Shown piece by piece: positions 57,001 to 60,000 of a stretch of DNA of 64,000 nucleotides. Made by a program: the position numbers. The stretch's first letter is position 1. Each line of letters starts with the position of its first letter. This DNA is from Candidatus Aenigmatarchaeota archaeon. GTDB lineage: Archaea > Aenigmatarchaeota > Aenigmatarchaeia > CG10238-14 > SpSt-28. The DNA is taken from the NCBI GenBank assembly GCA_039000985.1, contig JAWBMD010000001.1, positions 32,001 to 96,000 of the forward strand. Reading direction: 5' to 3'.

Positions 57001-60000
57001 AAGAGAAGCTAAAGCTTTTATAACTAATGTTATAAATGAGCTTGAAAAAAGAAAGGAAGAAATAAAGAATAGTTTCAATAAAGTTCAGACTCACTAATTA
57101 TTACAAAATCTCCTATGCTTTTTACTGCCGAGAATGGTATTACTATTTTTCCTTTTTCATTTTTCTTTAAATTTAATTGTGAAGCATAGCTTGTTGGCTG
57201 GCCAGCAATTATATTTATTAGCTCTCCAGTTTCAACTACAAATTCTACATTTTCAACTACACCAAGCTTTCTTCCATTTTCTTCGCTTATTATGGTTTTT
57301 CCTATTATATCAACAGCTCTAACTCTACTTTCTGGCATATTTTAACTTTAGATAATAAAAATAAATTATGGCAAAAGTAATTGTTCAGGATGTTTATGAT
57401 GTAATAGGATTGGGCAATATTGTTTTATGTTATATTAAAGAGGGTACTTTAAGGGTTGGCATGGTTACTAAATATAAAAATTATGTTTTAAGGGTTGCTA
57501 TGATAGAAAGTAAAAATGAAAGAAAAGAATATGCAGAGGAAAAAGAGTTTTGTGGGGTAAAATTAATACCTAATGAATTTTCTTTAGCAGATATATTTTT
57601 TGGAAAGGGAGAAAAAATAGTTAAAGAGCTTAAAGGAGTTTTATTGGAGTTTTCTTAGTGGACCAGCCGGGATTTGAACCCGGAGCCTTCGCTCAGCCAA
57701 AGCGACGTGCTACCATTGCACCACTGGCCCATTCCTTAAATTCTTTAATAGTTGGAAAAAATAAATCAATATATTGTTTAATTAAATATTTATCCACACC
57801 ACATATCTTTATTTTTTTATTTGTTATACCTATAACCTTTATTTTCTTACTTACTAAATTTTTTATCATAAATCCATAGCCTATCAAACTTTTGATGTTT
57901 TTTTCGCTGACAAAAACCGCTGTAGAATTAAAAAAATTATCACTCACAATGTAAGTTCCATACTTCGTTTCCAGTATAGTCTTTCCTTTTGGACGTAGGT
58001 TATTTTTTTCTAAAATATTTTGTATATTTTTTTCGAGTTTGTCTAATGGTTTTTTCTTTTCTATTAATGCGCCTCTAAGTGAATTTTTATTAATTAATCG
58101 AGCATAGAAATTAGATAAAAATCTTTTGAAATTTTTCATTTTCCCTTGAAGAATTTTAGTTCTTAGTTTTCTTAATTGAGTGATATCTAGGAGTATTGGA
58201 ATTATATTATTTTCAATTAACAATAGTGTTGCTTCTATTGGGAATCGTTCTTTTTTATAAGTATACTTTTTAACAAACCATGAAGTTACTATAAATTCTT
58301 TTTTTATTTTCTTTCTTTTTTCAAAAATTTTAGCTATTTCATAAAAAAGTAGAGCTTTACTCTTTCTGAATCCTAGAACTTCTTCAACAAAATTATTTCT
58401 ATAGTGAAAATCTACGCACCATCCACCTATCGGTACATGAACATCAAATGGTATATTTGCTTTTAAGTTCTCTTTTACAATCTTCTTTTCACGCTCTGTC
58501 AAGGGTGAGTTTTTTGCTCCAAGTGTTCCAAGCATCTTAAAGTAGTAGTTCCCATATTTTTTGATTAAGGTTTTCATTACTTTACTTCTAATTTTTTTGG
58601 AAGCTAGTATCTTTAACACATGCTTGCGTCTAAGTTCTTTAAATTTTTTATACATTTTTTTATTCAACTTAATTTTTTTATACCATAAAAGTAAAGAGTT
58701 GCGTCTTCTTTTGTTTCTAGCCAATTCAAGTTGTTTAAGGAACTTTTCATTTCCCCATTTCTTAATTCGTGCTTTTACACTATTTTTCCCACCTTTAATT
58801 TGTCCCCAGCTTGATTTTAATATTTGTACTTCTTTTAAAATTGTTTCTTTTTCTGGATACTCGTTTAATAGATCATTAAAAATATCCTTTGGAATGGTAC
58901 ATTCTAAACGTAGCCATCTTTTTAGTGTTGAATATGAAATACCATATTTTTTACTGAGTTCTGTTTTGGTCAGATGAAGAAGTCTAGATTTATTTTCTAT
59001 TAAAGTTTTTATGAGTGATTTCGATTCGATTTTAACTCTTTCCATCGGTACGGATATATATTAGAAAATTTATTTAAATATTTCCGTCATTTGAGCTACT
59101 GAACCTATTTTTCTCAAAGTTTTTAGTAGTTGAAAATAAAATTCTAATTTCTCTTACAATTCTTTTCTTATTGCAAGATAATTATCTATAGCTTCTTTAA
59201 TATCAACTGTTATTACAGTTCCATTTGGCAAAGTTCTTCTTATTGTCATTGGTAATAGCTTATTTTTAAATTCTTCTTTTGCTATTTCTCTTGGATTATA
59301 GCTTTTTGCTTTTATGAAATAAGGTGCTCCTAATGAAATTTGCATTGCTCGAGCAGAAATTATTCTAGCTACCTCATACTTTGTCAAAATGTTCATAAAA
59401 CATATTTTTCTATTTAGAATTTTTATTTGTTATGGTTGTATATAGTATTTATAATTTGATATGTATTTATTCCATAGGGTTGTGGTATTTTGACTTAATT
59501 TTTGTTTAAGCTTTACAAAAAAGAAAATAAAATTAGTTTTTTAAGTATACAAGGAAATACTTGAATTTGTCAGCTAGATTTGTTAAATTATAAAATAACA
59601 GGACCTCTATATCTTGAAATATCTATGGAAAACTCCCTCTTTTCATTATTATATTCTGTGTTAATTATTTTGTAAGAAATATTTGGAAATTTGATTTATA
59701 GTAAAAGCCTTTCTTGGGAATATATTTGACCTTCTGGAGTTCGCCACATTCTACTTATTTTTATCGAATCTACATACTCTCTGAGTCGTTCAAGATCTTC
59801 TAAAAGATTAATGTTTAGAAAATCTTCTGTAATTCTTCCATCTCCCCATCCATTAACTACTTTTCTTAAAATTATTTTCTTTACATCTTTTGGTAGGTAT
59901 GGTTCTATTGTTGTAGGTATTATAAAATAAATTATCAAATAAAAATATTAATATTTTGTGTCAATCATGTTCTTCTATATAACCTTTTAGCAAGCTTTGA

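What a model noticed while it worked through the whole genome (the two positions that open the first line are those of the whole stretch)
57658..59045. Free-standing HTH + twin PD-(D/E)XK endonuclease gene that ends inside tRNA-Ala
Unannotated g00106 (450 aa; HTH plus two PD-(D/E)XK-fold domains) lies between rpoK and tRNA-Ala(GGC), is missing at the same spot in the sister species, and its stop codon falls inside the tRNA; its relatives in other DPANN also run into a tRNA-Ala gene. It is a free-standing homing endonuclease of archaeal chromosomes that cuts at tRNA-Ala and carries its own resistant 5' tRNA end. New if true: intron-less homing at a tRNA gene in cellular chromosomes, and a new two-domain long-site nuclease family for the bench.
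Evidence so far: Sister genome G001: rpoK ends 9 nt before tRNA-Ala, no insert. Patchy: 4 of 371 phylum genomes. All 6 distinct full-length homolog loci from metagenomes and GTDB (Aenigmatarchaeota, Iainarchaeum, unclassified) continue directly into a tRNA with an Ala(GGC) anticodon, all longer than normal (introns); stop inside its 5' part in 4, read further in 2. A tRNA-like remnant lies just upstream of the gene here and the tRNA differs from the sister's. Model pLDDT 90.5; best Foldseek rows BsmI and homing endonuclease I-Bth0305I (E 0.01, 0.03; call 144); profile match to the 16S-intron nuclease family, probability 88%.
(Added by a program. Inside this text positions count along the whole contig: contig position 32,001 is position 1 of the stretch shown here. 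"Call 12" and the like, gene names such as g00115 and contig names such as C1 are that model's own, and its searches are not shown. The text may have been shortened before it was handed on; [...] marks where a part breaks off. The agent that wrote the report below was given it as the finding of a first reader that could run no searches.)

Follow-up and report, generated by a model that had tools for sequence, protein, structure and literature searches.

The report
Twin-nuclease gene welded onto tRNA-Ala
A predicted two-headed DNA-cutting enzyme gene in a tiny (DPANN) archaeon has no stop codon of its own and ends inside the alanine tRNA gene; its close relatives sit at the same tRNA and come and go like a selfish element, apparently carrying a replacement front half of the tRNA (often with a small intron) along with them.

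Summary
Confirmed. A 450-codon gene (57693-59045, -) overlaps tRNA-Ala(GGC) by 38 nt and stops right after the anticodon; the sister genome has rpoK 9 nt from the tRNA and no insert. The model shows an HTH module plus two PD-(D/E)XK folds. Of 17 distinct close-homolog loci in four DPANN phyla, 16 abut tRNA-Ala. The family is rare and patchy, and it decays (nonsense codon, IS200 insertion, two 3' stubs). In five Iainarchaeia genomes a LAGLIDADG gene occupies the same position. Carriers from four Iainarchaeia families share one tRNA 5' half with a D-arm intron (5 of 9 carriers, 0 of 63 non-carriers). Best reading (0.68): a free-standing homing endonuclease that co-converts the tRNA allele. Against: no activity data, structural scores are modest, neither domain has a canonical E-x-K, the stub occurs only here, distant relatives sit at RNase P RNA or ftsY, and the 88% profile match was not reproduced. 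This scan already found the LAGLIDADG and single-nuclease versions of this layout on other DNA; my paper searches found none. New here are the twin-domain family and the link to D-arm introns.

The parts
59154..59396 (-). rpoK (RNA polymerase Rpo6), upstream flank; in G001 it is followed directly by tRNA-Ala(GGC)
59091..59105 (-). 15-nt decayed stub resembling a tRNA-Ala 5' end (acceptor strand plus D-stem start)
   Evidence: 12/15 match to family tRNA-Ala 5' ends; 16 such 15-mers in 1.68 million non-tRNA positions, 0.001 expected in the 107-nt spacer (post hoc test); no stub in 9 other loci
59071..59078 (-). TATA-like box 26-33 nt before the ATG (probable leaderless promoter of the nuclease gene)
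   Evidence: read from sequence; inference, untested
57693..59045 (-). Nuclease gene, 450 aa; its last 12 codons and stop lie inside the tRNA
58902..58985 (-). HTH (about residues 21-48) within an N-terminal module (about 1-170) shared with LAGLIDADG and single PD-(D/E)XK ORFs of DPANN tRNA and rRNA loci
   Evidence: Pfam HTH hits below cut-off
58131..58514 (-). PD-(D/E)XK-fold domain 1 (residues 178-305; E186, H203, D212, E221/E222, K243)
   Evidence: VIA Z 10.1 (Can2), 8.5 (BsoBI), 7.8 (I-Bth0305I); conservation
57702..58049 (-). PD-(D/E)XK-fold domain 2 (residues 333-448; E338, K355, D369; no E-x-K)
   Evidence: VIA Z 8.9 (AF1548, PspGI); conservation
57658..57730 (-). tRNA-Ala(GGC), intron-less; 15 of 72 positions differ from the sister, with compensatory pairs; U37 forms the gene's TGA stop
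57368..57658 (+). Convergent 96-aa ORF (weak EF-Tu domain 2 similarity), downstream flank; the same DNA follows the tRNA in G001

Best explanation
A free-standing homing-type endonuclease element of DPANN chromosomes. The single-chain protein binds DNA through an HTH-containing module and cuts with two tandem PD-(D/E)XK domains, probably one per strand. Its target is inferred to lie in or just before the 5'-to-anticodon part of a naive tRNA-Ala(GGC) gene. Repair of the break from the carrier allele copies in the nuclease gene together with the carrier's tRNA sequence. That tRNA differs across the target (a D-arm or 37/38 intron in most carriers, substitutions including U37 here), so the carrier is not cut and keeps a working tRNA. 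The gene borrows its stop codon from the tRNA, so clean loss is hard and tRNA 5' processing would remove the stop from the shared transcript and damp expression. Shown: layout, empty sites, patchiness, decay, co-occurring tRNA alleles, fold. Inferred: cleavage, target, immunity, gene conversion, expression control.
For: 16 of 17 distinct close-homolog loci abut tRNA-Ala, 15 with the stop inside or beyond it, in Aenigmatarchaeota, Iainarchaeota, Nanobdellota and Micrarchaeota; upstream neighbours differ between phyla. The Micrarchaeota locus was fetched after the prediction was made. All Ala-linked rows fall in one clade of 22 of 30 rows, support 100/97. Rare and patchy: 2 of 371 phylum genomes, 0 of 18 family relatives, 7 of 215 Iainarchaeia plus 2 stubs, 1 of 401 Nanobdellota sampled. 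Decay: TGA at a conserved Trp (G371), stop 36 nt short of the tRNA (G373), IS200 transposase replacing the 3' end (L066), only the last 55-70 codons left (G458, G476). LAGLIDADG genes above the Pfam cut-off run into the same tRNA in 5 other Iainarchaeia genomes. The N-terminal module is shared with LAGLIDADG proteins (10 of 22 loci and 9 of 14 proteins above cut-off) and with ORFs inside 16S/23S genes; 36 of 59 such module-only ORFs end at a same-strand tRNA, against 9 of 459 and 2 of 44 control ORFs. The tRNA tracks the gene: the G000/G001 pair differs at 15 positions, the most of 31 intron-less pairs (median 4, next 10). Carriers in 4 different Iainarchaeia families share a 5' half and D-arm intron absent from 32 non-carriers in three of those families. 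Two PD-(D/E)XK folds, pLDDT 90.7.
Against: No activity, expression or population data; no contig joins across the gene. Foldseek E-values are all above 0.001, and VIA Z of 7-10 is in the range that common folds reach. Neither domain has a canonical E-x-K; domain 2 lacks the strand-3 acidic residue. The 4 distant relatives seen with DNA are not at tRNAs: RNase P RNA 3' end, ftsY-type genes twice, one contig end. A stub was found in 1 of 10 loci. G546 carries the gene with an intron-less tRNA, and 10 of 63 non-carriers have 37/38 introns; a D-arm intron occurs without the nuclease in G083. Iainarchaeota proteins form one clade and the two Aenigmatarchaeota proteins are unresolved, so the tree does not prove transfer between phyla. 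An embedded tRNA promoter was not supported by a TATA scan (3 of 14 carriers, 28 of 78 naive). No viral copy was found, so the route by which alleles meet is unknown.
Confidence: 0.68

Rival explanations
1. Selfish nuclease whose target is only the junction upstream of the tRNA (promoter, leader and first bases), destroyed by the insertion itself. The tRNA differences and introns are passengers of the conversion tract, not the source of immunity.
For: G546 has an unremarkable intron-less tRNA; a stub is missing in 9 of 10 loci; T4 free-standing enzymes cut away from their insertion sites (PMC2988022, passages).
Against: Upstream flanks differ between phyla while the tRNA isotype is constant, so the conserved target should include tRNA sequence; 14 of the 15 other carrier tRNAs have an intron between the D-arm and the anticodon loop.
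Confidence: 0.12
2. An ancient, vertically inherited and repeatedly lost host gene (domesticated nuclease or transcription regulator of the tRNA locus, WhiA-like in spirit), no longer mobile.
For: Iainarchaeota copies are monophyletic and syntenic, with long branches; an HTH is present; the catalytic motifs are non-canonical.
Against: Present in about 0.3-4% of genomes per group; frequent pseudogenes; exchangeable with LAGLIDADG genes at the same site; the sister genome's tRNA is the family-typical allele while the carrier's is foreign-looking.
Confidence: 0.09
3. tRNA-linked toxin, anticodon nuclease or defence nuclease that acts on RNA or foreign DNA and is controlled by co-transcription with the tRNA.
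For: The top VIA rows are CRISPR ancillary nucleases (Can2, Cdn1, Card1) and restriction enzymes.
Against: The matches cover only the generic nuclease fold; 0 PADLOC families for 22 members; no shared antitoxin, methylase or sensor gene among the neighbours I listed; the module is shared with homing-type proteins.
Confidence: 0.06
4. Remnant of an integrative element that entered through the tRNA 5' half by site-specific recombination (attL stub, cargo, attR tRNA), the nuclease being cargo.
For: The stub-insert-variant tRNA layout resembles the Caldiarchaeum tRNA-Thr case (PMC3293823, abstract and discussion).
Against: The insert is one gene plus about 100 nt with no recombinase; the same nuclease family recurs flush against the tRNA in four phyla; 9 of 10 loci lack a stub.
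Confidence: 0.05

Closest known systems
Mobile endonuclease ORFs (mORFs) of fungal mitochondria (Allomyces macrogynus atp6; Glomus atp6, atp9, cox2, nad3)
   Same: An intron-less endonuclease gene inserted in a conserved gene, bringing a foreign substitute piece of that gene and leaving the native piece displaced (PMC3630166, passages).
   Different: Those are LAGLIDADG or GIY-YIG enzymes in organellar protein genes and replace the 3' end; here a twin PD-(D/E)XK protein in archaeal chromosomes replaces the tRNA 5' side and borrows its stop codon.
Phage T4 SegB and other free-standing seg/mob endonucleases (intronless and collaborative homing)
   Same: Free-standing homing at a tRNA region; embedded host signals favour retention; can mobilise nearby introns (PMC2988022, passages).
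   Different: Phage, GIY-YIG; target listed as the tRNA intergenic region; no overlap with the tRNA described in the passages read.
I-Bth0305I (EDxHD, Vsr-like homing endonucleases)
   Same: N-terminal DNA-binding region plus a restriction-like nuclease domain; structural match to domain 1 (VIA Z 7.8, 95 aligned; Foldseek E 0.043).
   Different: One nuclease domain, dimeric, intron-encoded, EDxHD motif (PMC3239194, passages); here two domains and no H-x-D after the strand-3 Glu.
I-Ssp6803I (cyanobacterial PD-(D/E)xK homing endonuclease)
   Same: A PD-(D/E)xK homing enzyme; its tRNA-fMet target and group I intron host are recalled, not read here.
   Different: Multimeric (PMC3943268, passages) and intron-encoded; it did not appear among the structural rows shown.
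BsmI (single-chain restriction enzyme; its two catalytic sites are recalled)
   Same: Best Foldseek row (E 0.0078); VIA aligns 227 residues across both domains.
   Different: A short-site restriction enzyme with 8-9% identity; no methylase beside this gene.
DPANN LAGLIDADG and single PD-(D/E)XK genes that end inside tRNA genes
   Same: Same layout and, by my searches, the same N-terminal module.

Membership tests
Free-standing homing endonuclease | Optional, patchy gene with empty orthologous sites in relatives | tested here: met
   G001 empty; 6 empty orthologous sites in the G371 family
Free-standing homing endonuclease | Tied to one conserved locus across hosts | tested here: met
   16 of 17 close loci at tRNA-Ala; the 4 distant relatives seen are elsewhere
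Free-standing homing endonuclease | Nuclease fold with conserved catalytic-type residues | tested here: inconclusive
   Two PD-(D/E)XK folds; D212, E221, E338 and D369 invariant where present in 29 rows, no canonical E-x-K
Free-standing homing endonuclease | Co-conversion of flanking sequence | tested here: inconclusive
   The tRNA allele tracks the gene, but kin are not independent and no strain-level tract was seen
Free-standing homing endonuclease | Cleaves a long site in the naive allele and spares the carrier allele | not testable with these tools
   Needs biochemistry
Free-standing homing endonuclease | Decay and loss after invasion | tested here: met
   5 of 17 loci damaged or reduced to stubs: G371, G373, L066, G458, G476
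EDxHD (I-Bth0305I) family | E...D...E/H-x-H-D composite motif in a single Vsr-like domain | tested here: not met
   No H/D pair after the strand-3 Glu in either domain; two domains (motif from PMC3239194)
LAGLIDADG family | LAGLIDADG domain | tested here: not met
   No Pfam LAGLIDADG hit for the query or 11 full-length relatives; the model is PD-(D/E)XK-like
Intron-encoded (BHB or group I) endonuclease | ORF lies inside an intron whose removal restores the RNA | tested here: not met
   A complete tRNA with its own 5' acceptor strand and G3:U70 pair lies downstream; the stub does not supply that pair
mORF-type element with a substitute gene end | Displaced native piece plus a foreign replacement piece | tested here: inconclusive
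   Stub and foreign-looking tRNA here; stub absent in 9 other loci
Integrase-based tRNA island | Recombinase gene and att repeats | tested here: not met
   The insert holds one gene, with no integrase similarity in Pfam, NCBIfam or PHROGs
Known defence system | Match to defence profiles or partner genes | tested here: inconclusive
   0 PADLOC families for 22 members; the library dates from 2023

The most novel reading that the evidence does not exclude
DPANN chromosomes hold a modular superfamily of free-standing homing endonucleases (one HTH module with LAGLIDADG, single or twin PD-(D/E)XK business ends), each dedicated to one tRNA isotype. They spread by converting the tRNA allele, and they are the vehicle by which non-canonical D-arm tRNA introns are gained and spread: the intron immunises the gene, travels with the nuclease and stays after the nuclease decays. 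This family is its first single-chain twin PD-(D/E)XK member.
Probability: 0.4. Interest if true: 0.88.

Novelty: new variant of a known kind. Interest (0 to 1): 0.7.

Why it matters
[quoted passage not shown] The link seen here between D-arm introns and adjacent endonuclease genes (5 of 9 against 0 of 63 at tRNA-Ala(GGC); 23 of 36 against 0 of 42 for module relatives) gives a directly testable route. It would also extend intron-less homing to cellular chromosomes and supply a single-chain, probably long-site PD-(D/E)XK nuclease whose naive and carrier substrates are already known (the G001 and G000 alleles).

Tried and rejected
Read laying (4 of 14 listed runs, all contigs): two runs of one study hold a deeper related population with several per cent differences over the flanks and no long deep piece over the gene, but no contig joins across the gene, so this is not counted as an empty allele. 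Embedded tRNA promoter: no TATA enrichment, 3 of 14 carriers against 28 of 78 naive tRNAs. Stub as a general feature: 1 of 10 loci. Single-sequence fold of domain 2 failed, pLDDT 37, and was not searched. ESM Atlas: DUF559/NUMOD3 clusters at 0.87-0.90 with low feature counts, and 0.76 for the N-terminal part, leads only. No hit in viral contigs, PADLOC or NCBIfam for the query, and no informative PDB sequence hit. The single-protein locus scan found nothing. The sigma-70 scan does not fit archaeal promoters. Giant-intron and integrase readings rejected as in Membership tests. Cross-phylum transfer could not be shown from the tree, and I ran no AU test.
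Full report
Observation. The window holds a 450-codon ORF at 57693-59045 (-) whose last 38 nt lie inside tRNA-Ala(GGC), 57658-57730 (-); the TGA stop follows the anticodon directly. rpoK lies 107 nt upstream. There is no paralog in G000. 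In G001 (same genus) rpoK runs straight to the tRNA, the same DNA follows downstream, and there is no homolog. rpoK is next to a tRNA in only 2 of 29 rpoK loci, G000 and G001. As background, 4 of 42 G000 tRNAs are entered by an ORF of 100+ codons, and 9 of 459 long ORFs end near a tRNA start.

Protein. The AlphaFold model from 22 sequences has pLDDT 90.7 and pTM 0.67. Foldseek gave no row at E 0.001 or better; the best were BsmI (0.0078), Can2 and I-Bth0305I (0.043). VIA-align placed PD-(D/E)XK-type folds on residues 178-305 (Can2 Z 10.1, rmsd 4.2, 116 aligned; BsoBI 8.5; I-Bth0305I 7.8) and 333-448 (AF1548 and PspGI, Z 8.9), and aligned BsmI over both (227 residues, Z 7.5); the tool warns that Z of 7-8 is common. 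In 29 aligned rows D212, E221, E338, G354 and D369 are invariant where present, K355 in 28 and K243 nearly so; H203 is fixed only in the close clade; neither domain has E-x-K. Pfam sees only a weak HTH; NCBIfam and PADLOC see nothing for the query.

Relatives and context. Searches gave 4 and 53 proteins. Loci collapse to 17 distinct close loci, the window included. Sixteen abut tRNA-Ala on the same strand: 15 with the stop inside or past the tRNA and one (G373) 36 nt before it; the anticodon reads GGC in 15, and needs intron parsing in G374. The exception, L066, has its 3' end replaced by an IS200 transposase region. Hosts span Aenigmatarchaeota, Iainarchaeota, Nanobdellota and Micrarchaeota (record titles and handles), and the Micrarchaeota locus was a forward test. 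Stops fall at different offsets and in different frames, so the overlap is kept at the DNA level, not for a peptide. All these proteins lie in one clade of 22 of 30 rows (100/97); Iainarchaeota rows group together and the two Aenigmatarchaeota rows are unresolved. Four more distant relatives seen with DNA are not at tRNAs: one ends 9 nt from the RNase P RNA 3' end, two converge on SRP-type GTPase (ftsY) genes, and one meets a contig end.

Behaviour as an element. The Ala-linked form is in 2 of 371 phylum genomes and 0 of 18 family relatives, 7 of 215 Iainarchaeia plus two C-terminal stubs, and 1 of 401 sampled Nanobdellota; these are incomplete genomes. In the G371 family the orthologous site is empty in 6 genomes, holds this gene in 1, holds another ORF in 1, and was not recovered in 1. 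Five of 17 loci are damaged. In G458 and G476 only the last 55-70 codons survive against the tRNA. In five other Iainarchaeia genomes a LAGLIDADG gene, above the Pfam cut-off, runs into the same tRNA. The N-terminal module is shared with LAGLIDADG proteins, with a 260-aa single-nuclease family weakly like T7 endonuclease I and I-Bth0305I, and with ORFs inside 16S and 23S genes. Of 59 complete module-only ORFs, 36 end at a same-strand tRNA by my detector (34 inside it), which missed several visible by eye; controls were 9 of 459 and 2 of 44.

The tRNA follows the gene. G001's tRNA-Ala(GGC) is family-typical: the 60 matched bases are identical in 6 of 8 matched genomes of another genus. G000's differs at 15 of 72 positions in both halves with compensatory pairs, the largest difference among 31 intron-less orthologous pairs (median 4, next 10). 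It has U37, the only pyrimidine at that position among 32 parsed G000 tRNAs, and this U starts the gene's stop codon. A 15-nt tRNA-like stub lies 46-60 nt before the ATG (0.001 expected, post hoc), but 9 other loci have none. Among Iainarchaeia tRNA-Ala(GGC) genes that I recovered, 8 of 9 carriers have an intron against 10 of 63 without an upstream ORF, and 5 of 9 have a D-arm intron against 0 of 63; the 5 LAGLIDADG-preceded genes were left out of these counts (3 have a 37/38 intron, none a D-arm intron), as were rows that proved to be other anticodons and one truncated copy (classed by eye). The D-arm carriers belong to four families and share the same 5' half and similar intron ends, while 32 non-carriers in three of those families have other D-stems. 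For module-only relatives, introns 5' of the anticodon arm were seen in 23 of 36 linked tRNAs against 0 of 42 other tRNAs from the same loci (one linked tRNA was removed from the 43 controls). Caveats: the pattern found a match in only 85 of 215 genomes, kin are not independent so the Fisher values (about 1e-5) overstate, isotypes differ in the second comparison, G546 is a carrier without an intron, and G083 has a D-arm intron without the gene.

Mechanism. Most likely the protein cuts the naive tRNA-Ala(GGC) locus with two nuclease domains in one chain, and repair from the carrier allele copies gene plus tRNA variant; the variant or its intron gives immunity, and the borrowed stop codon locks the gene to an essential RNA and may limit expression through tRNA 5' processing. 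Layout, patchiness, decay, site sharing with LAGLIDADG genes and allele tracking are shown; cutting, target, immunity and conversion are inferred. A TATA scan did not support a promoter hidden in the last codons, although the two retained 3' stubs would fit one. Reads gave no usable evidence of within-species polymorphism.

Comparison with what is known. It works like fungal mORFs that carry a substitute gene end (PMC3630166, passages) and like T4 free-standing endonucleases, including SegB at the tRNA region (PMC2988022, passages). It is not a member of the EDxHD, LAGLIDADG or intron-encoded classes by the tests listed (PMC3239194 and PMC3943268, passages). A stub-insert-variant tRNA layout with intron gain was described in Caldiarchaeum and attributed to an integrase-type element (PMC3293823, abstract and discussion part 1). 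DPANN rRNA introns with LAGLIDADG genes are known (PMC6125680, passages). Nine paper searches (listings only, except the papers named) showed no description of endonuclease genes ending inside archaeal tRNA genes; the library lacks most subscription journals and I saw no supplements. This scan's earlier notes describe the LAGLIDADG layout at least eight times and a single PD-(D/E)XK gene with a D-arm intron at tRNA-Lys once; none matched this family by sequence.

Verdict. Real and non-random; most likely a new twin-domain variant of free-standing homing endonuclease (0.68). The layout is a repeat within this scan but apparently unpublished; the added value is the new nuclease architecture, a full invasion-to-decay series at one tRNA, and a measurable link to non-canonical tRNA introns. 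Interest 0.7.

Noticed in passing
L039, L057, L233, L245, L250, L251, L252, L258 (about 260-aa ORFs): A single-domain PD-(D/E)XK family with the same N-terminal module ends in tRNA-Asn(GTT) genes that carry introns 5' of the anticodon arm; similar ORFs sit at Lys and Pro tRNAs and in 16S/23S genes.
   Followed up: partly
L146, L182, L185, L186, L198: HTH-LAGLIDADG genes of 250-290 aa run into the same tRNA-Ala(GGC) in five Iainarchaeia genomes: two nuclease families use one site.
   Followed up: partly
L063:3-1956: Stacked cassettes: LAGLIDADG ORF, a tRNA, then this nuclease (N-terminally shortened) and tRNA-Ala with a D-loop intron.
   Followed up: partly
L035:1229-2874; L037:847-3481; L045:1-1935: Distant twin-nuclease relatives converge on the RNase P RNA 3' end or on ftsY-type genes, possible targets other than tRNA.
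   Followed up: partly
window 57693-57695: U37 in tRNA-Ala(GGC), unique among 32 parsed G000 tRNAs; the 61%-identical relative P0002 also ends Gly-stop, suggesting the same U37. GCC is a rare codon here (463 of 8602 Ala codons in long ORFs).
   Followed up: partly
G000 C1 (tRNA-Arg CCT, tRNA-Gly TCC) and C8 (tRNA-Arg TCG): Three ordinary-looking genes (by eye an Rpp21-like protein, a cation/proton antiporter and a cobalamin adenosyltransferase-like protein; not scanned) also end inside tRNA 5' ends, so such overlaps occur without nucleases.
   Followed up: no
window 59438-60214: A related population in two runs lacks this 775-nt stretch, which holds an 80-aa orphan ORF at 59696-59938.
   Followed up: no
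L106, L240, L244, L046: Some module-bearing ORFs meet a tRNA on the opposite strand or lie divergently from one.
   Followed up: no
L203 (G570:C20): A second copy of only the 3' part of tRNA-Ala(GGC), typical of an integration scar.
   Followed up: no
L032:6227-6348: tRNA-Ala behind the Nanobdellota homolog seems to carry two short introns flanking the anticodon; anticodon not certain.
   Followed up: no
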